This document shows positions 729-64,000 of a DNA stretch of 64,000 nt, one piece after another; positions within the stretch are counted from its first letter, which is position 1, and every line of letters begins with the position of its first letter. The notes beneath the pieces were generated by a model, which was given only the letters and a program-made list of their open reading frames with translations, was not told where the DNA came from and did no database searches. The translations under genes were made by a program, and so were the position numbers. The DNA comes from an uncultured Acidimicrobiia bacterium (GTDB taxonomy: Bacteria; Actinomycetota; Acidimicrobiia; Acidimicrobiales; AC-14): NCBI GenBank assembly GCA_963836205.1, contig CAWIIV010000013.1:16087-80086 (forward strand), read 5' to 3'.

Positions 729-1757
729 GTGGCTTCGTCCGGAGGGGGCTCGCTCCGGGCCTACGTGTTGGCGCGGCTGCTGCTGGCCGTCCCCATGCTG
801 TTCATCCTGCTGACGGTCACCTTCGTGCTCCTGCGGGTGGCCCCCGGCGACCCGGTGACGGCCACCCTCGGGGGACGGGTGTCGGATGCCAGGGCTGACC
901 AGATCCGCCACGATCTCGGCCTCGACCGGCCCCTGTGGCAGCAGTACACGTCGTACCTGGGGGACGTGGCCCAGGGCGACTTCGGCCGGGCCATCACCAC
1001 CAACCGCCCCCTGCGCACCACCATCGCCGACCGCTTCCCAGCCACCCTGGAGCTGACACTGGCGGCCATGGTGGTGGCCATCGGCGTCGGCGTGACGGTG
1101 GGGGCGGTGGCGGCCCGCTTCCGCGACACCCCCCTCGACGTGGGCGGGCGGCTCGTCGGCATCCTCCTCTACGCCGCGCCCATCTTCTGGCTGGGGATCA
1201 TGCTCCAGCTGCTGTTCTCCATCCAGCTCCACTGGCTGCCCACGGGGGGACGGATCGCGCCCTTCCACGAGCCCCGGTCGATCACCCGGCTCTATCTCGT
1301 CGACGGGTTGCTGACGGGGGACTGGGCCGCCCTGGGCAGCGCCTTCCGCTACCTGATCCTGCCCGCGGTGACCCTGGGGGTGGTGATCGGGGGGATCTTC
1401 ATCCGCCTGGTGCGGGTCAACATGCTCCAGACGCTCAAGGCGGACTACGTGGAGGCGGCCCGGGCCCGGGGCATCGGCGAGCGGCGGGTGCTCTTCAACC
1501 ACGCCTTCCGCAACGCGCTGGTGCCGGTGGTGACGATCGTGGGCCTCCAGTTCGCCTTGCTGCTGGGCGGGGCCGTACTCACCGAGGCCACCTTCACCTG
1601 GCCAGGGATCGGCCTTTCGCTTTACCAGTTCCTCCAGAACCGGGACTACACCGCGGTGCAGGGGCTGGTGACGTTCTACGCCCTGTTCGTGGTCGGGGTC
1701 AGCCTGCTCATCGACATCGTCTCGGCGTGGGTCGATCCCCGGATCCGATTCCAGTGA
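729..1757 (+). CDS. Peptide ABC transporter permease (DppB/OppB type)
   Basis: PGDP motif, LGLDRPLWQQY, EAA motif (DYVEAARARG), HAFRNAL. Confidence 0.92.
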   Translation: MASSGGGSLRAYVLARLLLAVPMLFILLTVTFVLLRVAPGDPVTATLGGRVSDARADQIRHDLGLDRPLWQQYTSYLGDVAQGDFGRAITTNRPLRTTIADRFPATLELTLAAMVVAIGVGVTVGAVAARFRDTPLDVGGRLVGILLYAAPIFWLGIMLQLLFSIQLHWLPTGGRIAPFHEPRSITRLYLVDGLLTGDWAALGSAFRYLILPAVTLGVVIGGIFIRLVRVNMLQTLKADYVEAARARGIGERRVLFNHAFRNALVPVVTIVGLQFALLLGGAVLTEATFTWPGIGLSLYQFLQNRDYTAVQGLVTFYALFVVGVSLLIDIVSAWVDPRIRFQ

Positions 1758-4181
1758 TCGGGCGTGGGGGTCGGCGGGCCGAGCGGATGCGGAGATTGTG
1801 GCGGACGACGCACCCCACCGCCCGCCGGCTGTTGGTGGCCGGTGGCGTGATCACCGGCCTGTTCCTGCTCATGGCCGTGTTCGCGCCCCTGGTGGCTCCG
1901 TACGGCGAGGCCGAGTACCAGGGGGTGCCGCAGCTGGGCCGGCCCAGCGCCGATCACTGGTTCGGCACGACCAACCTCCGCTACGACGTGTTCTCCCGGG
2001 TCGTGTTCGGCACCCGCCTGGCGTTCCAGGTGGTCATCCTGTCGACTGCGGTGGCGATGGTGATCGGGGTGCCCCTGGGCCTGGCCGCGGGGTACACCGG
2101 ACGGTGGCTCGACCGCGTGCTCGTGCTGCTCATGGACGCCATGTACGCCTTCCCCAGCCTGCTGTTGGCCATCGTGGCCGCATTCGCCCTCGCCCGCTAC
2201 GTCGGCCAGGGGGTGCCGGCGGCGGCCATCTCCATCTCCGTGATCTACGTCCCCCAGTACTTCCGGGTGGTGCGCAACCACACGCTGGCGGTGCGGGAGG
2301 AGGCGTTCGTGGAGGCGGCCCGAGCCATGGGCGCGCCCCGGCGGACGGTGGTCGGGCGGTACGTGCTGTTCAACGTGGTCCAGTCGGTGCCGGTGATCTT
2401 CACCGTCAACGCGGCCGACGCCATCCTCACCCTGGCCGCGCTGGGGTTCCTCGGCTACGGGGTGCCGATCCCGGCCGCCGAGTGGGGCTACGACATCTCC
2501 CGGGCCATCGGCGACGTGGCCAACGGCTTCTGGTGGACGTCGCTGTTCCCGGGGCTGTTCATCCTGGCCCTGGTCACGGGCCTCACTCTGCTGGGGGAGG
2601 GGATCAACGACGTCGTCAACCCCCTGCTCCGCCGGCGGGGGGTCGGCGTCGGGGCGGTGGCGCCGGGAGCGGTCGTGGTGGAGCGGGCCTCCACGGTGGC
2701 GACGCCTTCGGTGGACGCCGAGCGCGTCGACGGCGGTGTGGCCGACGCGCTGCCGGCCGCGGCCGTCGTCCTGGAGCCGCCGCCGGCGGAGATGGAGCCG
2801 GACACCGGGCCGGTCGCTGCGGTGCCGCCACCACCACCGCCGCCGGACCGGGCGGCGCGGGAGGACGTACCGGTCGCGGCCTCGAACCCGACGGAGAAGG
2901 TGGTGCCGGAGGAAGATGTACCGGTCGCCGCCTCGGCCCCGCCGGAGCGGGCGCTGCCGAAGGAGGACGTACCGGTACCGGTCGATCCCTCGGCCCCGCC
3001 GGAGCGGGTATCGGCGGAGGACGAACCAGTAGCGGCCTCGGCCCCGCCGGAGCGGTCGACGTCAGCGGACGTACCGGTCGCCGCCTCGGCCCCGCCGGCG
3101 GCCGCCGGGCGAGTCACGGCCGCGGTCCCGCCGCCGGCGGCCGACGTGGCCCTGTCGGTGCGCGACCTGCGGGTGACGTACGCCTCGTCCCGGGGCCCGG
3201 TGGTGGCGGTAGACGGCGTCAGCCTGGACGTGAGGCGGGGTGAGAGCATCGGGCTGGTCGGGGAGAGCGGGTGCGGCAAGTCGACCCTCGGCCGGGGGAT
3301 CCTGGGCATCCTCCCCGGGGGAGCGACCGCCAGCGGCCGGGTGGTCGTCGGCGGGGTGGAGCTGTCGGCGCTGGGTCCGGGGGAGCGCCGCCGGGCCCGG
3401 GGGGAGAAGGTGGCCCTCATCTTCCAGGAGCCGATGACCCGACTCGACCCCCTCCAGCGCATCGAGGACGCCTTCGTGGAGACGATCCGGGCCCACCGGC
3501 CGGAGGTGTCGCGACGGGAGGCGTCCGCCATGGCCGCCACCGCCCTGGCCGCCATGCGCATCCCGCCCACCCGGGCCCGTCACTACCCGCACGAGTTCTC
3601 GGGCGGCATGCGCCAGCGGATCATGATCGCCCTCGGACTGGTGCTCGGCCCGGCCGTGCTGGTGGCCGACGAGCCCACCACCAGCCTCGACGTCATCGTC
3701 GAGGCCCAGATCCTCGAGATCCTCGACGACCTCCGCCGAGGGTCGGAGATGGCCCTCGTCCTCATCACCCACAACCTCGGGATCGTGGCCCAGACATGCG
3801 ACCGGCTGGCCGTGATGTACGCCGGCCACATCGTGGAGCAGGGCGCGGTCGGTGCCGTCTTCTCGACGCCCCGCCACCCCTACACCCGGGGCCTGCTGGC
3901 CAGCGTGATCAGCCTCGACACCGAGCGCCTGTCGTCGATCCCCGGCTCGCCGCCCGACCTCCTCGACCCGCCCCCCGGGATGCCGGTTCGCGCCTCGGTG
4001 CCCGTTCGCCATGGGCGTGTGCCAGGAGCAGGTGCCGGCCCTGGCCCCGATGGACGACGGCTCCCAGGTCGCCTGCCACCTGTACCCGGGCGCCGACACC
4101 CGCCATCCCGGACGCCGGTGGGTGCCGGCCGGCCGGCGGGAAGGCCTCGCCGACGCCCCGCTCGAAGCGAGCCTGGAGTGA
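1754..4181 (+). CDS. Fused DppC-type permease + DppD-type ATPase, one frameshift near 3975
   Basis: GTG overlaps the dppB stop; permease motifs HWFGT and EAARAMG; Pro/Ala linker; Walker A GESGCGKS and FSGGMRQR. The C-terminal CRFAPRC...VACHL continues in the +1 frame after the C run at 3971-3976, to TGA 4179-4181. Confidence 0.8.
2861..3097 (+). repeat. Five imperfect ~50-nt coding tandem repeats (EDVPVAASAPPER-like)
   Basis: Recurring gaggacgtaccggtcgccgcctcggccccgccggagcgg-like units in the DppC-DppD linker. Confidence 0.8.
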
Positions 4182-5591: not shown

Positions 5592-7343
5592 CTGCTGGAC
5601 GAGCTGCGCAAGCTCCAGGCGATCATCGCCGCGCTGTCGGCCGCGCCGTCGGAGGACGCCATCGCCGACGTCGCCGTCGACCGCCTGCTGGAGGCGGTCG
5701 GTGCCGATGCCGGCGTGCTGGCCCTGCGCGACGACGACAGCCTGATCGTCCGGCGCGCCATCGGCTACCGGGAAATCGCGGCCGCCTGGACCCGCATCCC
5801 GCTCGACGCCGACCTGCCCCTGAGCGACGCCGCCCGCCGGGGCGAGCCCGTGTTCCTGTCCACCGGCGCGGCCCGGCTCCGGGCCTACCCCATGTCGGCG
5901 TCCATCCCCGTGCTGTACGAGGGCCTCGTCGCCCTCCCCCTCCTCGTCGGCGACCGGTGCCTCGGTGTCCTCGGCCTGAGCTTCGCCGAGTCCCGCCGGT
6001 TCGATCCCGACGAGCAGGCCCTCCTGGTCACCATCGCCCAGCTGTGCGCCCTCACCATCGACCGCTTCGAGCGGGGCGCCCGGCTCAGCCGGCTCCAGGA
6101 GCTCACCGGCCACCTGTCCCGGGCCTTCACCGTCGAGGAGGTGGTGCGGGTGATCCGGGACGAGCCCATCCCCGAGCGGTCGGTGCTCGGCCGGGGGCTG
6201 TGGCTGCTCGACGACGAGAGCGGTGGGCTGCGCCAGGCCTTTCCCGTGTCAGCCGGCGGCGAGCCCGTGGTCATCCCCCTCGACGCCGACCTCCCGGCGG
6301 CGGAGGCGGCCCGCACCGGCGAGGTGGTGTGGGCGAGCGGCCTGCGAGGAGCGCCGGCCGAGGACCAGTTCCCGTCCCTCGCGGCCACCGGCTTCGGGAG
6401 CGCAGCCGCCATCCCCCTGGCCGCCGAGGACCGCGTGGTCGGGGTCCTCACGGTCGGCTTCGAGCACGACCTTCCGGTCGACGAGGGCGAGCGGCGATTT
6501 CTCGTCGCCCTGGCCGAGCAGGCGGCGGTGGCGCTGGAGCGGGCCCGCCTCTACGACAGCGAGCGCCAGTCGCGGCGCCAGGCGGAGCTCGATCGCCAGC
6601 GCTCGCTCGAACTGGCCCGGGCCCTGCAGACGAGCCTGCTCCCGCCCCGCCTGCCCGACGTCCCCGGCCTCGACCTGGGCGCCCGCTACCACCCCGCCCT
6701 GGCCGGCCTGGAGGTGGGCGGCGACTTCTACGACGTGTTCGACACCGGAGGCGACTGGGCCGTCGTGATCGGCGACGTGTGCGGCAAGGGCCCGGAGGCG
6801 GCCGCCCTCACTGCCCTCGCCCGCTACACCATCCGGTCGGTGGCCATGGACCTGCGCCACCCGGCCCAGGTGCTGCGCAAGCTCAACGACACCCTTCTCC
6901 ACCACCAGCTCGACGAGCGGTTCTGCACCGTTGCCTACGGACGGGTGGTCCCCAGCGTCGGTGGGGTGCGCGTGTCGGTGTGCCGGGCCGGCCACCCGCC
7001 CCCGATCGTGGTGCGGGCGAACGGCGACCTGGAGGCCATCGGTCCCGACGGCGGGCTGGTCGGCCTGTTCGCCGAGATCCGCCTGTGGGACGAGACGGTG
7101 CAGCTCACGCCGGGCGACAGCCTCGTCTTCTACACCGACGGGGTCACCGAGGCCGCCCGTGGCCAGGAGCAGTTCGGCGACCGGCGACTCGACGAGGTTT
7201 TGCGGGGCTGCGCCGGCCTCACCGCGGCCGAGGTGGCCGAGAACGTGGAGGCGGCGGTGATCGACTTCGGCGGCCCCCAGCCCCGCGACGACCTGGCCGT
7301 GCTCGTCCTCCATGTCCCCACCGCGGCCGACGCCGCCCGCTGA
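5592..7343 (+). CDS. GAF-GAF SpoIIE/RsbU-type PP2C phosphatase (start uncertain, 5592-5715)
   Basis: Two GAF-like segments; PP2C motifs VGGDFYD, IGDVCGKG, AGHPPP, YTDGVTEA, DDLA. Confidence 0.88.
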   Translation: MLDELRKLQAIIAALSAAPSEDAIADVAVDRLLEAVGADAGVLALRDDDSLIVRRAIGYREIAAAWTRIPLDADLPLSDAARRGEPVFLSTGAARLRAYPMSASIPVLYEGLVALPLLVGDRCLGVLGLSFAESRRFDPDEQALLVTIAQLCALTIDRFERGARLSRLQELTGHLSRAFTVEEVVRVIRDEPIPERSVLGRGLWLLDDESGGLRQAFPVSAGGEPVVIPLDADLPAAEAARTGEVVWASGLRGAPAEDQFPSLAATGFGSAAAIPLAAEDRVVGVLTVGFEHDLPVDEGERRFLVALAEQAAVALERARLYDSERQSRRQAELDRQRSLELARALQTSLLPPRLPDVPGLDLGARYHPALAGLEVGGDFYDVFDTGGDWAVVIGDVCGKGPEAAALTALARYTIRSVAMDLRHPAQVLRKLNDTLLHHQLDERFCTVAYGRVVPSVGGVRVSVCRAGHPPPIVVRANGDLEAIGPDGGLVGLFAEIRLWDETVQLTPGDSLVFYTDGVTEAARGQEQFGDRRLDEVLRGCAGLTAAEVAENVEAAVIDFGGPQPRDDLAVLVLHVPTAADAAR

Positions 7344-24891: not shown

Positions 24892-24940
24892 TTCGTGGGC
24901 CGGAAAAGGTGCGTCTGGCGCCCCTTTTCTGGCCCAAGAA
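24892..24940. repeat. Imperfect ~49-nt palindrome (REP-like)
   Basis: ttc-tgggccggaaaagg...ccttttctggccca-gaa. Confidence 0.6.
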
Positions 24941-24962: not shown

Positions 24963-24978
24963 TACCGTGATCCCCATG
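24963..24978 (+). promoter_or_regulatory. -10 box TACCGT + N7 + ATG (leaderless hit start, serving as intron 5' exon)
   Basis: Same TANNNT-N6/7-start geometry as several other genes in the window. Confidence 0.6.
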
Positions 24979-26935
24979 TTGCGTCCTGAGAACTGGACCA
25001 GACCAGCGGGTGCGAGTCCCGCCCGGGTAATCGCCGGAGAGCCCGGTAGCAGGCCCCGGTTCGTCGCCGAGAGGCGGCGGGCTGAGCGGGGCGTCAAGAG
25101 CCTCTTTGGAGGGAGCAAGCGTGCGGGCCGTAGTGCCACCAGGCGCGAGTCCTGCAGCCTCGTCAAACGCACAACGGGGGAGCCGAGCCGCTCATGTCAC
25201 GGCGAAGGCCACGTCCGACCGACTGGCGTTCCGGACACGCCCCTGGTCGGGTCCCCTCGGGGTACGGGGAGCGGCACGTACGCACGGTCAGGTTCGGAAC
25301 AGGAGAGACCCGTCTGCGCAGCCTCGTCAGCAAAGACCGCTCGTATAAGCCAGTGGTGAAATCGAGCGGAGCGCAGCGGGAGTCCGACGGGGTCGTAGTA
25401 CCGCTGATCGCCGGGATGAACCCGGCGGGAGGGAAGGGCCCCGACTTCGGTCACGCCGGAGACGGAAGTAAGCGCCAGGGCATGGCCGGGAACGCCCGGC
25501 CCAACTCCCCCGGCGGGCAGCCGCCCACCGACAACGTGCGAAAACTCCAGAACCGGCTATGGGCTGCGGCCAAGCAGTCTCCGGGTCGCCGCTTCCACGC
25601 CCTGTTCGACCGAATCCACCGCAGTGACGTGCTGTGGACGGCGTGGGAGCGGGTGCGAGCCAATCGTGGCGCCGCCGGGGTCGATCGACTGACCCTGGAG
25701 GCGGTGGAGGACTACGGGGTCGGGCGCGTGCTCGACGAGCTTTCCCGTGACCTCCGTGCAGGCACCTACCGCCCGTCGCCTGTTCGGCGGGTGGAGATCC
25801 CCAAGCCCGACGGCCGGATGCGGCCCCTGGGCATCCCCACCGTGCGCGACCGGGTGTGCCAGGCGGCAGCCAAGATCGTCCTCGAACCCATCTTCGAGGC
25901 CGATTTCCTGCCCCAGAGCTTCGGGTTCCGCCCGAAGCGGTCGGCCACCGACGCCCTGGAAGCCATCCGGGTGTCCTTCCCCCGAGGACGGCAGTTCGTC
26001 TTCGAGGCCGACATCCGCGACTTCTTCGGCCAGATCGACCACGACAGGCTGCTGTCACTGGTCGGCGAGCGCGTGTCGGACCGGCGGGTGCTCAAGCTCA
26101 TCCGCCAGTGGCTGCGTGCCGGGGTGCTGGTCGAGGGGGTGCGCTCCGAGACGGTCACGGGCACGCCCCAGGGCGGGGTCATCTCCCCGCTGCTGGCCAA
26201 CATCTACCTGCACGCCTTCGACCGGTCCTGGGCCGAGTCCGGCACCGGCGAGCTCGTCCGTTACGCGGACGACTTCGTGGTGCTGTGCACGACCCGCAGC
26301 CAGGCCGAGACGGCCCAGGCCAGGGCGGCGGCCCTGCTGGGTGATCTCGGCCTGAGCCTGCACCCGGACAAGACCCGTGTGGTCGACCTCCGGGAGGGCA
26401 AGGAGGGCTTCGACTTCCTGGGTTGTCATCTTCACGCCCGCATGTCGGGCCGGTTGTGGGAACAGCAGCGGGTCATCCGCTACTACCTCCACCGCTGGCC
26501 GTCGCAGCGGTCGATGAAGCGGGCACGACAGCGGGTCAAGGCCCTCACCGGCCGGAACCGGGTCGGCATGGAGTTGGAGGACGTGATCTACGACCTCAAC
26601 CTGTTCCTGCGGGGGTGGGGCAACTACTTCCGCACCGGCAACGCGGCGAATAAGTTCGTCTCCCTCGACCGACACGTCGTGTGGCGGCTCAAGCGCTTGC
26701 TCATCAAGAAGCGGGGCCGCAACCTACGGGCAGGCCAGGCAGACTGCTGGACCCGCACCTGGTTCCACGGCCAGGGCCTGCATCAGCTCATGGGCACCAT
26801 TCGCTACCCGAAGGCGTCGTAACCATGTCCAGAAGATCGTCGGAAAGCCGTATGCGGGAAAACCGCACGTACGGATTGAAAGGGGGATGGGGAAACGTGC
26901 TGGCCTTGCCGGCAACGCGCCCCTGACTACCAATG
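24979..26935 (+). mobile_element. Group II intron, copy 1 (complete), inserted at the hit start codon
   Basis: 5' TTGCG (GUGCG variant); similarity with copy 2 begins here; DV AAGCCGTATGCGGGAAAACCGCACGTACGGATT at ~26845-26877; DVI ending ACTACCAAT(G). Confidence 0.92.
25482..26822 (+). CDS. ltrA: Group II intron reverse transcriptase/maturase without endonuclease domain
   Basis: GAAGVD, RPLGIPTVRDR, GTPQGGVISPLLANIYL, RYADD, FDFLG, domain X LNLFLRGWGNYF; no HNH; start could be GTG 25536. Confidence 0.96.
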   Translation: MAGNARPNSPGGQPPTDNVRKLQNRLWAAAKQSPGRRFHALFDRIHRSDVLWTAWERVRANRGAAGVDRLTLEAVEDYGVGRVLDELSRDLRAGTYRPSPVRRVEIPKPDGRMRPLGIPTVRDRVCQAAAKIVLEPIFEADFLPQSFGFRPKRSATDALEAIRVSFPRGRQFVFEADIRDFFGQIDHDRLLSLVGERVSDRRVLKLIRQWLRAGVLVEGVRSETVTGTPQGGVISPLLANIYLHAFDRSWAESGTGELVRYADDFVVLCTTRSQAETAQARAAALLGDLGLSLHPDKTRVVDLREGKEGFDFLGCHLHARMSGRLWEQQRVIRYYLHRWPSQRSMKRARQRVKALTGRNRVGMELEDVIYDLNLFLRGWGNYFRTGNAANKFVSLDRHVVWRLKRLLIKKRGRNLRAGQADCWTRTWFHGQGLHQLMGTIRYPKAS

Positions 26936-27280
26936 GCATCGGAGTGCGTCTTCTGCCGGATCGTCTCGGGCGACATCCCGTCCGACGCGGTGGCCTCGTC
27001 GGAGCTGTCCTACGCCTTCCGCGACATCCAGCCGGCCATGCCCGTGCACGTGCTCGTCGTCCCTCGGCGGCACATCACGTCGGCCGCCACCGTCGAGGCC
27101 GCCGACGCCGACGTCCTGGCCGACATGGTCCTCACTGCCCAGGAAGTGGCCCGCCGCGAGGGCCTGGCCGAGCGGGGCTACCGGCTCGTGTTCAACGTGG
27201 GCGACGACGCCCTCAACTCGGTCGCCCACCTCCACCTGCACGTGCTGGGCGGCCAGAAGATGGGGTGGCCGCCGGGCTGA
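26933..27280 (+). CDS. HIT family nucleotide-binding protein
   Basis: CVFC zinc motif, HLHLH triad. Confidence 0.95.
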   Translation: MASECVFCRIVSGDIPSDAVASSELSYAFRDIQPAMPVHVLVVPRRHITSAATVEAADADVLADMVLTAQEVARREGLAERGYRLVFNVGDDALNSVAHLHLHVLGGQKMGWPPG

Positions 27281-27310: not shown

Positions 27311-28288
27311 GTGTCCCCCACCCAAGTCAAGATCCTCGTCCCCGGCAACCACCTCATGGTGGAGCTGCTCGGCCACCGTGACCAGTTGTTGCGGCTGATC
27401 GAAGCCGCGTTCCCCGAGGCCGACGTCCTCGTGCGGGGCAACGAGATCACCATCAGCGGCGACGACGCCGACCGGGTGGGACGCCTCTTCGACGAGCTCG
27501 TCCTCCTCCTCGGCCGGGGCCAGCGCCTCGACGCGGCCGACGTGGGCCGCACCATCGAGATGGTCAAGGCCGACGAGAAGCCGTCGGAGGTCATGTCGGG
27601 CGAGGTCCTCCGCTCGGCGAGGGGCCGCAGCGTGCGCCCCAAGACCAGCGGCCAGAAGCGCTACGCCGACGCCATCGCCGGCAACGTGATCACCTTCGCC
27701 ATCGGCCCCGCCGGCACCGGCAAGTCGTACCTGGCCGTGGCCCAGGCGGTGCAGGCCCTCCAGGCCAAGCAGGTGAGCCGCATCATCCTCACCCGCCCGG
27801 CGGTGGAGGCGGGGGAGCGGCTGGGCTTCCTTCCCGGCGACATGCTGGCCAAGGTCGACCCCTACCTGCGCCCCCTCTACGACGCCCTCTACGACATGCT
27901 CGGCCCCGAGGGCGCCAAGCGCCTCCTCGACGGGGAGACCATCGAGGTCGCCCCCCTCGCCTACATGCGGGGGCGCACGCTCAACGACAGCTTCCTCATC
28001 CTCGACGAGGCCCAGAACACCACCCCCGAGCAGATGAAGATGTTCCTCACCCGCATCGGCTTCGGGTCCAAGGCGGTCGTCACCGGCGACGTCACCCAGG
28101 TCGACCTGGCCGCCGGGCGCAGCGGCCTGCTCGGCCTGGAGAAGGTCCTCACCGGCATCGAGGGCCTGGCGTTCGTGCACCTCACGTCGAAGGACGTGGT
28201 GCGCCACCGCATCGTCCAGGACATCGTCGACGCCTACGAGCGGGCGACCCCCAATGAGGCGACCCCCAAACGAGGCCGACCCCAATGA
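27311..28288 (+). CDS. phoH: PhoH/YbeZ ATPase
   Basis: GPAGTGKS, LGFLPG, YMRGRTL, DEAQN, GDVTQVD. Confidence 0.96.
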   Translation: MSPTQVKILVPGNHLMVELLGHRDQLLRLIEAAFPEADVLVRGNEITISGDDADRVGRLFDELVLLLGRGQRLDAADVGRTIEMVKADEKPSEVMSGEVLRSARGRSVRPKTSGQKRYADAIAGNVITFAIGPAGTGKSYLAVAQAVQALQAKQVSRIILTRPAVEAGERLGFLPGDMLAKVDPYLRPLYDALYDMLGPEGAKRLLDGETIEVAPLAYMRGRTLNDSFLILDEAQNTTPEQMKMFLTRIGFGSKAVVTGDVTQVDLAAGRSGLLGLEKVLTGIEGLAFVHLTSKDVVRHRIVQDIVDAYERATPNEATPKRGRPQ

Positions 28289-28298
28289 AGCCAACATC

Positions 28299-28832
28299 GT
28301 GAGCCCACTGGAGGTCTTCGCCGCCGACGAGCAGTCCGACGAGCCAGTCGACGCGGTGCGGTGGATGGACCTGACCAAGGCCGTCCTCCAGGCCCAGGGG
28401 GTGCGGGGCGACACCGAGGTCTCACTCCTGTTCATCGACGAACCGGCCATGGCCGAGCTCAACCTGCGCTTCCTCGACAAGCCCGGCCCCACCGACGTGC
28501 TCGCCTTTCCCATCGACGAGGAGGAGGCCCTCGAGGCCGGTCCCGCCGGACCCCGCTCGCCCGACTCCTTGGGCCCCGGCCCCACCGACGAGCCCGAGCT
28601 GGGCGACGTCCCCCGCCTGCTGGGCGACGTGGTCGTGTGCCCGGCCGTCGCCCGCCGCAACGCCCCCGGCCACGCCGGCACCTACGACGACGAGATGGCC
28701 CTGCTGATCGTCCATGGCGTGCTGCACCTGTTGGGTATGGATCACGAGGACGCGCAGGAGGCAGCCCACATGGAGCAGCGGGAGCAGGAGATGCTCGACC
28801 GGTTCCACCGAAAAGCGGTGACCCAGCAGTGA
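28299..28832 (+). CDS. ybeY: rRNA maturation endoribonuclease YbeY
   Basis: PTDVLAF, LGDVVVC, HGVLHLLGMDH. Confidence 0.95.
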   Translation: MSPLEVFAADEQSDEPVDAVRWMDLTKAVLQAQGVRGDTEVSLLFIDEPAMAELNLRFLDKPGPTDVLAFPIDEEEALEAGPAGPRSPDSLGPGPTDEPELGDVPRLLGDVVVCPAVARRNAPGHAGTYDDEMALLIVHGVLHLLGMDHEDAQEAAHMEQREQEMLDRFHRKAVTQQ

Positions 28833-63317: not shown

Positions 63318-63357
63318 TTGACCCGCTGATTCTGACGCTCTAAAATTCAGTGTCATG
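63318..63357 (+). promoter_or_regulatory. Sigma70-type promoter TTGACC-N17-TAAAAT, 8 nt before an ATG that abuts intron copy 2
   Basis: Near-consensus -35/-10 with 17-nt spacer. Confidence 0.75.
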
Positions 63358-64000
63358 GTGCGTCCTCGAAGCTGGACCAGACCAGCGGGTGTGAGTCCCG
63401 CCCGGGTAATCGCCGGAGAGCCCGGTAGCAGGCCCCGGTTCGTCGCCGAGAGGCGGCGGGCTGAGCGGGGCGTCAAGAGCCTCTTCGGAGGGAGCAAGCG
63501 TGCGGGCCGTAGCGCCACCAGGCGTGAGTCCTGCAGCCTCGTCAGATGTACAACGGGGGAGCCGAGCCGCTCATGTCACGGCCAAGGCCCACGTCCGACC
63601 GACTGGCGTTCCGGAATGCCCCTGGTCGGGTCCCCCCGGGGTATGGGGAGCGGCACGTACGCAAGGTCAGGTTCGGAAGGGGAGAGACCCGTCTGCGCAG
63701 CCTCGTCAGCAAAGACCGCTCGTATAAGCCAGTGGTGAAATCGAGCGGAGCGCAGCGGGAGTCCGACGGGGTCGTAGTACCGCCAGCCGGCGGGAAGGGC
63801 CCCGACTTTGGTCACGCCGACGATGGGGGTAAGCACAAGGGCATGGCCGGGACCGCCCGGTCCAAATCCCCCGCCGGGCAGACGCCCGTCGACAACGTGC
63901 GAAAACTCCAGAACCGGCTATGGGCTGCGGCCAAGCAGTCTCCGGGTCGCCGCTTCCACGCCCTGTACGACCGCATCCACCGGAGTGACGTCCTGTGGGA
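63358..64000 (+). mobile_element. Group II intron, copy 2 (5' part, runs off the window)
   Basis: GTGCG 5' end; long near-identity to 24979-25640. Confidence 0.92.
63843..64000 (+). CDS. ltrA: Group II intron RT/maturase N-terminus (partial)
   Basis: VRKLQNRLWAAAKQSPGRRFHALYDRI, matching copy 1. Confidence 0.88.
   Translation, partial: MAGTARSKSPAGQTPVDNVRKLQNRLWAAAKQSPGRRFHALYDRIHRSDVLW

What the first reader, a model, noticed from the sequence alone, without database searches (positions are those of the whole stretch)
24963..26945. Group II intron family that appears to target start codons via an EBS1 reading CAUG
Seen: both copies begin right after CATG (ccccATG|TTGCG at 24979; tgtcATG|GTGCG at 63358) in otherwise unrelated flanks. 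In both, the domain I hairpin GCCG-ctCATGTCa-CGGC (25187-25203; about 63566-63582), flanked by GCCGA and (G/C)AAGGC as expected around d3, exposes CAUG, which is complementary to the exon end. Removing 24979-26935 gives ATG GCA TCG GAG TGC, the in-frame hit gene. The RT lacks an endonuclease domain. Inference: a retroelement using gene start codons as a genome-wide safe-haven target. Introns at translation signals are known (e.g. Azotobacter groEL stop codon), so the degree of novelty must be checked.
Basis: partly seen in the sequence, partly recalled or inferred. Interest (0 to 1): 0.88.

Follow-up and report, generated by a model that had tools for sequence, protein, structure and literature searches.

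The report
Introns that hijack leaderless start codons
A widespread family of mobile self-splicing introns sits right after the first codon of genes whose messages appear to have no leader; it seems to use that start codon to make its own enzyme and ends in a new start codon for the gene.

Summary
Window 24979-26935 is a complete group II intron with no endonuclease domain. 63358-64000 is a second copy, cut by the contig end. The genome holds 8 copies.

Across 80 unique insertion sites from many phyla:
- 78 have a TAnnnT -10 box 6-8 nt upstream of the ATG/GTG that abuts the intron. Among all RTG triplets of the same loci the figure is 0.69%.
- No Shine-Dalgarno signal is enriched. This is the layout of leaderless genes.

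Loop bases C-A-U-N covary with exon positions -1 to -4. All 6 introns with CAC follow GTG, and position -4 is 94% paired with five pair types. I found no EBS2 and no pairing with the 3' exon.

1. The reading frame of the host start codon stays open into the intron. It is fused to the reverse transcriptase in 26 of 60 members and joined to it by overlapping stop/start codons in most others.
2. The intron ends in its own ATG (70 of 79) or GTG (8). A small ORF across domains V-VI stops 6-20 nt before it.

This suggests a translational relay from the host start codon back to the host ORF. How the -10 box is sensed is unresolved. I found no description in print. The nearest known lineage (IIB1, with endonuclease) differs.

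The parts
24963..24968 (+). -10-like hexamer TACCGT of the HIT gene promoter, 7 nt upstream of the start codon
   Evidence: The same TAnnnT is present at spacer 6-8 in 78 of 80 unique sites. Intron-less alleles in relatives keep TAnnnT-N7/8-ATG.
24975..24978 (+). IBS1: C at -4 plus the host start codon ATG, derived from the target
   Evidence: Covariation with EBS1. The 5' triplet varies (ATG or GTG) among copies that are 100% identical. The intron-less kinase allele has GTG at the site.
24979..26935 (+). Group II intron, copy 1 (1957 nt). Begins UUGCG and ends CUACCAAUG.
   Evidence: Four further copies at 99.6-100% identity and three at about 90% lie in the same genome.
25004..25138 (+). 5' part of domain I (Rfam RF02003, group-II-D1D4-4)
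   Evidence: 91 bits, gathering score 49, model positions 1-138 of 138.
25187..25203 (+). EBS1 hairpin. EBS1 is C25193 A25194 U25195 G25196 in a 9-nt loop.
   Evidence: Three compensatory stem changes are visible in the alignment (L045, L093, L098).
24976..25359 (+). uORF of 127 codons. It starts at the host ATG, runs through domains I-III and ends in TGA.
   Evidence: The frame is open for 120 codons or more in 53 of 60 members; shuffles give 4.5%.
25353..26822 (+). Intron-encoded reverse transcriptase/maturase (489 aa counted from GTG 25353). GTG 25356 overlaps the uORF stop as GTGA.
26825..26926 (+). sORF of 33 codons. Its ATG lies 2 nt after the RT stop. It crosses domains V-VI and its TGA lies 6 nt before the terminal ATG.
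   Evidence: A bridging sORF is present in 41 of 45 members; shuffles give 9.4%.
26843..26927 (+). Domains V and VI. The bulged branch-point candidate is A26929, within CUACC just 3' of this span.
   Evidence: RF00029, 37.8 bits against a gathering score of 40, E 2.3e-5, model 1-77 of 77. Alignment.
26933..26935 (+). ATG carried by the intron (its last three bases), in frame with the host ORF
   Evidence: ATG 70, GTG 8, ACG 1 of 79 unique 3' junctions.
26936..27280 (+). 3' exon: HIT-family gene from codon 2 onward (115 aa counted from 26933)
   Evidence: PF01230, residues 13-109. Intron-less alleles.
63341..63357 (+). Site of copy 2: TAAAAT, an 8-nt spacer, then ATG
63358..64000 (+). Intron copy 2 (the 90% subfamily, begins GUGCG). 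It is cut by the end of the window and of the contig. EBS1 hairpin 63566-63582; uORF 63355-63738.

Best explanation
This is one monophyletic lineage of group II introns whose protein lacks an endonuclease domain. It has specialised on the first codon of leaderless genes.

Shown by sequence:
(a) The DNA target is a -10 hexamer TAnnnT, then 6-8 nt, then N-R-T-G. The intron lies right after the G.
(b) The only base pairing with the target is a 4-nt EBS1 (5'-CAUN) that reads N-RUG. There is no EBS2 and no pairing with the 3' exon.
(c) The reverse transcriptase has no start signal of its own. Its frame is either continuous with the host start codon through domains I-III, or is linked to an ORF that begins there by overlapping stop/start codons (ATGGTGA, ATGA, GTGA, or TAG-3nt-ATG).
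(d) After the RT stop, a 30-46-codon ORF crosses domains V-VI and stops 6-20 nt before the intron's last three bases, which are ATG or GTG in frame with the host gene.

Inferred mechanism:
1. The host promoter makes a transcript that begins with the start codon, so the 5' exon is 3 nt long.
2. Ribosomes load on that 5'-terminal AUG and make the RT.
3. By termination-reinitiation they are passed along to the intron-borne AUG. The host protein can then be made even from unspliced RNA.
4. Splicing restores the original leaderless message.
5. The RNP then reverse-splices into other NRTG sites that lie at the transcription start of a -10 box.

I consider it likely (about 0.65) that the -10/TSS feature is itself sensed. 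The leading idea is the opened non-template strand of an RNA polymerase promoter complex, by analogy with IIC introns sensing DNA hairpins. This step rests on no direct evidence.
For: Target layout:
- 78 of 80 unique sites have TAnnnT at spacer 6 (49), 7 (25) or 8 (4). Controls: 193 of 28,120 RTG triplets. SD-like tetramers: 6 of 80, against a background of 10.4%.
- In the window's genome, TAnnnT peaks at spacers 6-9 before RTG of ORFs of 100 codons or more (242, 204, 163 and 106, against about 40 at other spacers). Leaderless starts are therefore common there. Only 609 of 108,237 RTG triplets with 100 or more open codons downstream carry the box.
- The one internal site of this genome (the kinase GTG) also has TATCGT-N7-GTG.
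- The spacing agrees with mapped leaderless promoters (PMC3898074, passages read).

EBS1: covariation.

Target origin of the 5' triplet and intron origin of the 3' triplet.

Reading frames:
- The host-start frame has a median of 161 open codons, against 17 and 3 in the other two frames.
- 26 members are fused (617-680 codons), 10 restart in the same frame and 24 in another frame, most of them with a start codon overlapping the stop or a few nt from it, out of 60.
- In 14 outgroup introns the RT frame is open for only 30-300 nt upstream of the match, where 530-620 nt would be needed.
- A bridging sORF is present in 41 of 45 members, against 9.4% in shuffles. In 53 of 54 members an open frame ends 25 nt or less before the terminal codon, in three different frames.
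- At least 597 public protein clusters carry the N-terminal extension. Many are 617-680 aa with RVT_1 plus GIIM.

Monophyly: 66 family rows need one change on the RT tree.

Host genes are real.
Against: - No transcription start, splice junction or protein was observed. 'Leaderless' is read from the motif alone. Metatranscriptome contigs only show relatives of the intron in RNA libraries.
- The members are related, so the counts overstate independence. The tree is FastTree only: the family-only split has 68% support, and 98% once the long-branch row L115 is included.
- G+C-rich, conserved RNA keeps frames open more easily than shuffles suggest.
- Translation through domains I-VI should compete with ribozyme folding.
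- Splicing with a 3-nt 5' exon, and reinitiation without an SD, are both untested.
- The lack of any 3'-exon pairing is odd for a IIB-like intron and leaves a 0-2 nt doubt on the boundaries.
- 7 of 66 sites have ORFs under 60 codons, and two internal in-frame sites exist, so a gene start is not strictly needed.
- Two of six introns with EBS1 CAC keep a 3' AUG. The link between EBS1 and the terminal triplet remains unexplained.
Confidence: 0.7

Rival explanations
1. Selection only. The RNP inserts at any NRTG (4 bp). Copies are seen at leaderless starts only because they can be translated, propagate and do no harm there. The -10 box is not sensed.
For: The RT depends on upstream translation, so misplaced copies would be dead ends. 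The two internal sites are both in frame with a translated host ORF. In high-G+C actinobacteria a TAnnnT alone often creates a start site (PMC3898074), so the kinase site may be an internal promoter by chance.
Against: - In-frame RTG codons inside genes, and SD-led start codons, would serve translation equally well and are far more numerous. Only 609 of 108,237 long-frame RTG carry the box, yet 78 of 80 sites do.
- Five near-identical, hence recent, copies in one genome all have the box, including the internal one.
- SD-led starts are essentially absent (6 of 80).
Confidence: 0.25
2. Boundary error. The 3' ATG is the host's own start codon, and the element (xTG...CCA) lies just upstream of it, between the promoter and the gene.
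For: Both ends carry xTG, so the DNA alone allows sliding. No 3'-exon pairing was found.
Against: - Among copies that are 100% identical, the 5' triplet varies (ATG or GTG) while the 3' triplet is constant.
- The intron-less kinase allele has GTG, matching the 5' triplet.
- EBS1 covaries with the 5' triplet and with position -4.
- GUGCG follows the 5' triplet, and the bulged A would be only 3 nt from such a 3' end.
Confidence: 0.03
3. It belongs to the already described IIB1/CL1 lineage that colonises initiation and termination codons (the Avi.groEL and EcKTE56.groEL relatives of Michel et al. 2007).
For: The same kind of site, an initiation codon, is reported for part of that lineage (PMC12584367, Introduction read).
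Against: [quoted passage not shown]
- Here Pfam finds only RVT_1 plus GIIM.
- The Rfam domain I model starts at intron nt 26, and the whole RNA ahead of the RT start is 378 nt.
- I could not read Michel et al. 2007.
Confidence: 0.03
4. The open frames and the terminal ATG are by-products of conserved RNA sequence and high G+C, with no role in translation.
For: Stops are rare in G+C-rich DNA. The stop before the terminal ATG lies in the conserved 3' strand of domain VI. Outgroup introns also have an ATG close to the RT stop.
Against: - The other two frames close after a median of 17 and 3 codons.
- Domains I-III vary from 543 to 645 nt among fused members yet stay in frame.
- Three different junction designs all keep stop and start within a few nt.
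- The last ORF ends near the terminal codon in three different frames.
- Outgroup RT ORFs are free-standing.
- Shuffles give 4.5% and 9.4%, against 88% and 91% observed.
Confidence: 0.12

Closest known systems
IIB1 (CL1) 'specialized' lineage at initiation/termination codons: Avi.groEL, EcKTE56.groEL (Michel et al. 2007, cited in PMC12584367)
   Same: These are bacterial group II introns tied to translation signals of host genes. Insertion recreates a codon (stop TAA becomes TAG there; a start codon is re-supplied here). The way the site is chosen is stated to be unknown.
   Different: That lineage has an RT with an endonuclease, a 300-700-nt subdomain Ia and long EBS/IBS pairings, and sits in housekeeping genes such as groEL. 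Here there is no endonuclease, no such insertion and only a 4-bp EBS1. The host genes are diverse, a -10 box is always present, and the RT is read from the host start codon.
Group IIC (class C) introns
   Same: No endonuclease domain, a short IBS1 of 3-4 bp, no EBS2, and specificity supplied by a DNA feature rather than by a long homing sequence (PMC4424553; PMC12584367).
   Different: IIC introns insert after terminator hairpins or attC sites in intergenic DNA. Here the feature is a -10 box at a fixed distance and the site is inside the gene's first codon boundary. The terminator-like hairpin at 24908-24922 ends 56 nt upstream. The Rfam match is D1D4-4. Membership of the RT in class C was not tested.
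Yeast mitochondrial introns aI1/aI2, whose ORF is in frame with the upstream exon (recalled from reviews, not read here)
   Same: The intron protein is translated from the host gene's start through domains I-III as a fusion.
   Different: Those are organellar introns with long upstream exons and endonuclease-containing proteins. In bacteria free-standing ORFs in domain IV are the rule: recalled for the field, and seen here in 14 of 14 outgroup introns.
RmInt1 (class D, Sinorhizobium meliloti)
   Same: A mobile intron without an endonuclease that needs primers from the replication fork (PMC4424553).
   Different: RmInt1 has a long homing site with EBS1, EBS2 and EBS3 inside an insertion sequence, and a free-standing ORF.

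Membership tests
Group II intron (general) | Domain I-IV ribozyme structure | tested here: met
   RF02003 at 91 bits against a gathering score of 49, at both copies. RF02005 gives a partial match at 39 bits.
Group II intron (general) | Domain V plus domain VI with a bulged adenosine near the 3' end | tested here: met
   RF00029 over its full model, at 37.8 bits. This is just under the gathering score of 40, with E 2.3e-5. The alignment of 56 sequences shows the domain V hairpin and a GGGGG/UCU[A]CC basal helix.
Group II intron (general) | Intron-encoded RT with a maturase (X) domain | tested here: met
   RVT_1 at 2.8e-36 and GIIM at 2.2e-16.
Group II intron (general) | Mobility: several copies with exact ends, and intron-less alleles | tested here: met
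   8 copies in the genome. Intron-less HIT and kinase alleles in relatives.
Group II intron (general) | EBS1-IBS1 pairing at the 5' splice site | tested here: met
   Covariation at -3/217 and -4/218.
Group II intron (general) | Splicing in vivo or in vitro | not testable with these tools
   The RNA contigs gave no joint across the intron.
IIB1/CL1 start- and stop-codon lineage (Michel et al. 2007) | RT of the CL1 lineage with a C-terminal endonuclease domain | tested here: not met
   No HNH/En domain. The ORF ends about 30 residues after GIIM. Placement in CL1 by phylogeny was not tested.
IIB1/CL1 start- and stop-codon lineage (Michel et al. 2007) | A 300-700-nt insertion (subdomain Ia) at the base of domain I | tested here: not met
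   The domain I model starts at intron nt 26 and is matched without a gap. There are 378 nt from the 5' end to the RT start.
IIB1/CL1 start- and stop-codon lineage (Michel et al. 2007) | Located in or next to an initiation or termination codon | tested here: met
   Directly after the initiation codon.
Group IIC | Insertion directly after a terminator hairpin or an attC site | tested here: not met
   The flanks are -10 box plus start codon. The only terminator-like hairpin ends 56 nt upstream (one site scanned).
Group IIC | Short EBS1 and no EBS2 | tested here: met
   4 bp of pairing. No other flank-intron covariation was found in the first 330 nt.
Leaderless gene start (the target class) | -10 hexamer TAnnnT with the start codon at the expected transcription start, and no SD | tested here: met
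   78 of 80 sites; SD-like tetramers in 6 of 80. The genome-wide peak lies at the same spacing.
Leaderless gene start (the target class) | A mapped 5' triphosphate end at the start codon | not testable with these tools
   Only assembled contigs of metatranscriptomes were available.

The most novel reading that the evidence does not exclude
A whole lineage of retroelements finds its targets through the transcription machinery. The intron RNP reverse-splices into the non-template strand that RNA polymerase opens at leaderless promoters (-10 box, then the start codon at +1). It then lives as a fully translated cassette: host AUG, then RT, then a small ORF over domains V-VI, then an intron-borne AUG, then the host protein. 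That would be a fourth target specificity for bacterial group II introns. It would also be the first one coupled to transcription initiation, and a bacterial case of an intron protein read from the host's start codon.
Probability: 0.35. Interest if true: 0.95.

Novelty: new variant of a known kind. Interest (0 to 1): 0.88.

Why it matters
- A 2015 review lists three target specificities for bacterial group II introns: homing sites, terminators and attC sites (PMC4424553). A 2025 paper says that how some introns colonise start or stop codons is unknown (PMC12584367).
- This lineage offers a clear, testable rule: a -10 box, 6-8 nt, then NRTG read by a 4-nt EBS1. It occurs in at least 597 protein clusters and in many phyla, and in cultured strains per the record titles (Embleya, Sorangium, Nannocystis, Pelomonas, Saccharopolyspora).
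- It ties a mobile ribozyme to leaderless translation and to termination-reinitiation. It shows an intron that may not need to splice for its host gene to work.
- Its insertion sites may serve as natural markers of leaderless gene starts in uncultured bacteria.
- If the promoter bubble is the target, it would be a new way for a retroelement to read genome function rather than sequence. It could also become a targeting principle for intron-based gene tools.

Tried and rejected
- **EBS2/IBS2.** I scanned flank positions -1 to -22 against every column of the first 330 intron nt. Only -3 and -4 pair. The next signal (-12 against position 190: MI 0.53, 80% paired) lies in the variable middle of the -10 box and tracks host lineage.
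- **EBS3 or delta.** No column covaries with 3' exon positions +1 to +7. Only the first 330 nt were scanned.
- **TSD idea.** The two xTG are not duplicates of each other; GTG/ATG pairs are frequent.
- **Registers -1 and -2.** These cannot be excluded from DNA alone. They are disfavoured.
- **Local fold of the EBS1 hairpin.** The hairpin is predicted, but its energy is no better than shuffles (z 0.20). Support for it comes from covariation, not from energy.
- **E. coli-type promoter scan.** No hits at the site. That scan demands a -35 hexamer, which I would not expect in this high-G+C genome.
- **RNA evidence.** One run search and one laying were done. Soil metatranscriptome contigs from 3 studies, 88-99% alike, cover 25004-26928 but hardly the flanks. 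There was no joint across the intron. Contigs cannot show starts, so this is no evidence for or against splicing or a leaderless start.
- **Plasmid annotation.** The best record carries no gene table at the site. It did yield one more site that fits the rule.
- **Literature.** Searches found no description of introns at leaderless starts, of a bacterial intron ORF read from the host start codon, or of an intron-terminal start codon. Of PMC4424553, PMC3753933, PMC3073962, PMC3552965 and PMC3898074 I saw passages. Of PMC12584367 I saw the outline, the Introduction and passages. Michel et al. 2007 (Biochimie) is not held and may bear on novelty. Supplements were not opened.
- **Rows dropped.**
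  - L109 was left out of the site table. It falls in the outgroup on the RT tree, but its first 12 intron bases match the family's conserved 5' sequence; it follows ACA and has no box.
  - L014, L027, L109 and one duplicate locus were left out of the covariation counts.
  - L038 was left out of the tree.
  - One duplicate pair of loci was counted once.
- **Unpublished genomes.** G008, G015, G017, G021 and G023 count in the 23-of-41 tally. One of the 80 sites (L031, from G021) rests on such a genome. No sequence from them is printed here.
Full report
**What is there.** Window 24979-26935 is a 1957-nt group II intron.
- Rfam RF02003 matches 25004-25138 at 91 bits.
- RF00029 (domains V-VI) matches 26843-26927 at 37.8 bits, just under its gathering score of 40.
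- The ORF carries RVT_1 and GIIM and no endonuclease domain.
- A second copy starts at 63358 and is cut by the end of the window and of the contig.
- The genome holds 8 copies. Five are 99.6-100% identical and begin UUGCG. Three are about 90% identical to those and begin GUGCG.

**The junctions.** In all 8 copies the 5' flank ends in ATG (6 copies) or GTG (2). In all 7 copies whose 3' end is held, the intron's own last three bases are ATG.
- The 5' triplet comes from the target and the 3' triplet from the intron. Copies that are 100% identical differ at the 5' triplet but not at the 3' triplet.
- The intron-less allele of the histidine-kinase gene in a same-genus genome has GTG (Val) at the site.
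- Intron-less HIT alleles in five same-genus genomes have one ATG followed by the same second codons.
- TG is repeated at both ends, so the DNA allows the boundaries to slide by 0-2 nt. Register 0 fits the GUGCG consensus and the end of the EBS1 helix. It also fits a bulged A (in CUACC, opposite GGGGG) that then lies 6 nt from the 3' end.

**A family with one rule.** I collected relatives in two ways: a search of 41 related genomes (23 had matches) and a scan of one genome per species with the RT (593 relatives, the best 80 kept). I then placed the boundaries. By their record titles the carriers include Acidimicrobiia, Solirubrobacterales, Streptomycetaceae, Mycobacterium, Chloroflexia, Gemmatimonadales, Myxococcota, Burkholderiales, Planctomycetota, Acidobacteriota, Nitrospirae and Spirochaetia.

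Across 80 unique sites:
- The 5' triplet is ATG 60, GTG 18, TTG 1, ATT 1.
- 78 sites have TAnnnT with a spacer of 6 (49 sites), 7 (25) or 8 (4) nt. The two exceptions have GACAAT and TAGCGA.
- Among all 28,120 RTG triplets of the same loci, 0.69% have such a box.
- SD-like tetramers occur in 6 of 80 sites, against a background of 10.4%.

This is the signature of leaderless genes. A TANNNT -10 motif centred 7-12 bp upstream of the start site is reported for mapped mycobacterial promoters, and new TANNNT motifs often create new start sites there (PMC3898074). In the window's own genome the same box peaks at spacers 6-9 before long ORFs: 242, 204, 163 and 106, against about 40 at other spacers.

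The genes are real.
- Of 66 junctions with a downstream stop, 52 open ORFs of 100 codons or more, 7 open ORFs of 60-99 codons and 7 open shorter ones.
- 20 of 20 ORFs tested are ordinary families: decarboxylase, MnmE, DtxR-type repressor, prephenate dehydratase, MFS transporter and others. In most, the first matched stretch lies within about 25 residues of the N-terminus; several begin later, from residue 39 to 192.
- On an RT tree the 66 family rows form one group (one change). The 16 other loci, at 56% RT identity or less, lie outside it. Where their 5' end could be placed they do not follow an ATG (L099 follows GTG), and none shows the 3' CYACC..TG end.

**EBS1.** Its loop reads N-U-C-A-U-N-Y-C-R.
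- Loop position 217 pairs with exon -3: A-U 49, G.U 9, G-C 6, U.U 1.
- All six introns whose loop reads CAC follow GTG. The change arose at least four times on the tree.
- Position 218 pairs with exon -4: C-G 47, T-A 3, A-T 3, G.T 6, G-C 2 and 4 non-pairs (MI 0.84).
- Positions -5 and -6 do not pair. No EBS2 signal and no covariation with 3' exon +1 to +7 were found.
- Position -4 would not be in a leaderless RNA. Its covariation therefore points to recognition of DNA during retrohoming.
- A 4-bp site cannot explain the site choice. In the window's genome only 609 of 108,237 RTG triplets with 100 or more open codons downstream carry the box.
- The one internal insertion of this genome (kinase, Val GTG) also has TATCGT-N7-GTG.

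I therefore think the -10/TSS feature is part of what is recognised. A promoter complex opened by RNA polymerase is the most natural candidate, and the 6>7>8 spacing resembles start-site choice. This is inference.

**The intron is read from the host start codon.**
- The frame of the host start codon runs into the intron for a median of 161 codons. The other two frames close after 17 and 3 codons.
- In 26 of 60 members it continues without a stop through domains I-III and the whole RT (617-680 codons).
- In 10 members it stops and, in most of them, an ATG follows 3-33 nt later in the same frame.
- In 24 members the RT lies in another frame. Most of these uORFs have 121-127 codons and end in ..ATGGTGA, ATGA or GTGA, so that an RT-frame start overlaps the stop.
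- In the window the uORF is 24976-25359, and the RT frame starts at GTG 25353/25356, overlapping TGA 25357-25359.
- Six members have early stops and look decayed.
- In 14 outgroup introns the RT frame is open for only 30-300 nt upstream of the match, as in ordinary bacterial introns with a free-standing ORF.
- Gene callers found the long form too. At least 597 protein clusters share residues 1-200 of a fused ORF, and many are 617-680 aa with RVT_1 plus GIIM.
- Shuffles keep the frame open for 120 codons in 4.5% of trials, against 53 of 60 observed.

**The way back to the host gene.**
- The intron ends in ATG in 70, GTG in 8 and ACG in 1 of 79 unique 3' junctions, always in frame with the host ORF.
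- In 41 of 45 members whose RT stops 60 nt or more before that codon, a 30-46-codon ORF starts within a few nt of the RT stop (ATG at +2, -1 or -4 in most members). It crosses domains V and VI and stops 6-20 nt before the terminal codon. Shuffles give 9.4%.
- In the other members the RT ORF itself ends 9-25 nt before the terminal codon.
- Overall, in 53 of 54 members an open frame ends 25 nt or less upstream of the terminal codon, and it does so in three different frames.
- In the window: RT stop 26820-26822, sORF 26825-26926, terminal ATG 26933-26935, then the HIT ORF.

The simplest reading is a chain of termination-reinitiation events. It would let ribosomes that loaded on the 5'-terminal AUG reach the host ORF on unspliced RNA. 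It is inferred, not shown.

**One loose end.** Of the six introns with EBS1 CAC, four also end in GUG. Two introns with CAU also end in GUG. The terminal triplet may pair with EBS1 at some step, for example in release of the 3' end when the 3-nt 5' exon is lost. I could not test this.

**Comparison with what is known.**
- A 2015 review names three target specificities for bacterial introns: homing sites, terminators and attC sites (PMC4424553).
[quoted passage not shown] - The present lineage has neither feature, so I do not file it there.
- It works most like IIC introns: short EBS1, no EBS2, a DNA feature as the second determinant. The feature itself is different.
- In its protein expression it resembles mitochondrial introns whose ORF is fused to the upstream exon. 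That point is recalled, not read here.
- Eight literature searches found no description of this lineage's rule.

**Verdict.** The lineage is a new variant of a known kind, with three linked novelties:
1. leaderless starts as targets;
2. an RT read from the host start codon;
3. an intron-borne start codon reached by a chain of ORFs.

The sequence patterns are firm. The translation relay and the sensing of the promoter are hypotheses with clear tests.

Noticed in passing
G000:C17:122126-124082 (locus L001): One of the five near-identical copies lies inside a histidine-kinase gene, after a Val GTG (..SIVRAV|AKAHGG..), in frame. Its flank still shows TATCGT-N7-GTG. The relative's intron-less allele reads TCCATCGT there, so a synonymous T creates the box.
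   Followed up: partly
protein P0077 (DNA not seen): An 818-aa database protein is a family-2 glycosidase fused in frame, at an internal Met (..HYPHNRN|MVRRDE..), to the intron-coded extension and RT. This is a second insertion that is not at a gene start.
   Followed up: no
L042:1615-4403: This family member has about 840 extra nt between its 5' end and the RT. The 5' end lies 1386 nt upstream of the RT match, against about 545 nt in its relatives. Possibly a nested insertion.
   Followed up: no
L052 (Saccharopolyspora record), 3' end at 6374: The 3' end (CUACCAAUG plus a 165-codon ORF) lies about 2 kb further from the RT than usual, and no 5' end was found. Either an insertion or a rearranged copy.
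   Followed up: no
L006/L027 (G020:C9:113408-115022): A copy at a TAGGTT-N6-ATG site has an internal deletion of intron nt 172-514, removing much of domain I including EBS1.
   Followed up: no
L030 (G001:C6:31978-32102): A 5' fragment of about 123 nt follows TAGTAT-N7-ACG. The start codon and the intron's 5' motif are both mutated, so this looks like a decayed remnant.
   Followed up: no
window 24908-24931: A terminator-like hairpin with a T run lies between the upstream gene and the HIT promoter, 56 nt before the insertion site.
   Followed up: partly
window 25004-25234 against 25466-26774: In four soil metatranscriptome assemblies the summed contig depth over domain I is several-fold higher than over the RT ORF. 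This may only reflect more relatives matching the conserved part.
   Followed up: no
window 27311-28832: Downstream of the HIT gene lie ORFs that look like PhoH (27311-28288) and YbeY (28254-28832). The names come from recall of the translations and were not tested.
   Followed up: no
G000:C6:109727-111665, and loci L078, L110, L093, L037: Five sites have the -10 box and ATG but only 8-39 codons downstream. Either the host gene has decayed, or the intron accepts any transcript that starts with AUG.
   Followed up: no
L134 (Embleya sp. NBC_00896, second replicon) 1367-3342: A further copy in a cultured strain fits the rule: TACGGT-N6-ATG, a uORF of 126 codons, a terminal ATG and a 144-codon host ORF. 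Together with L054 this strain has at least two copies.
   Followed up: partly
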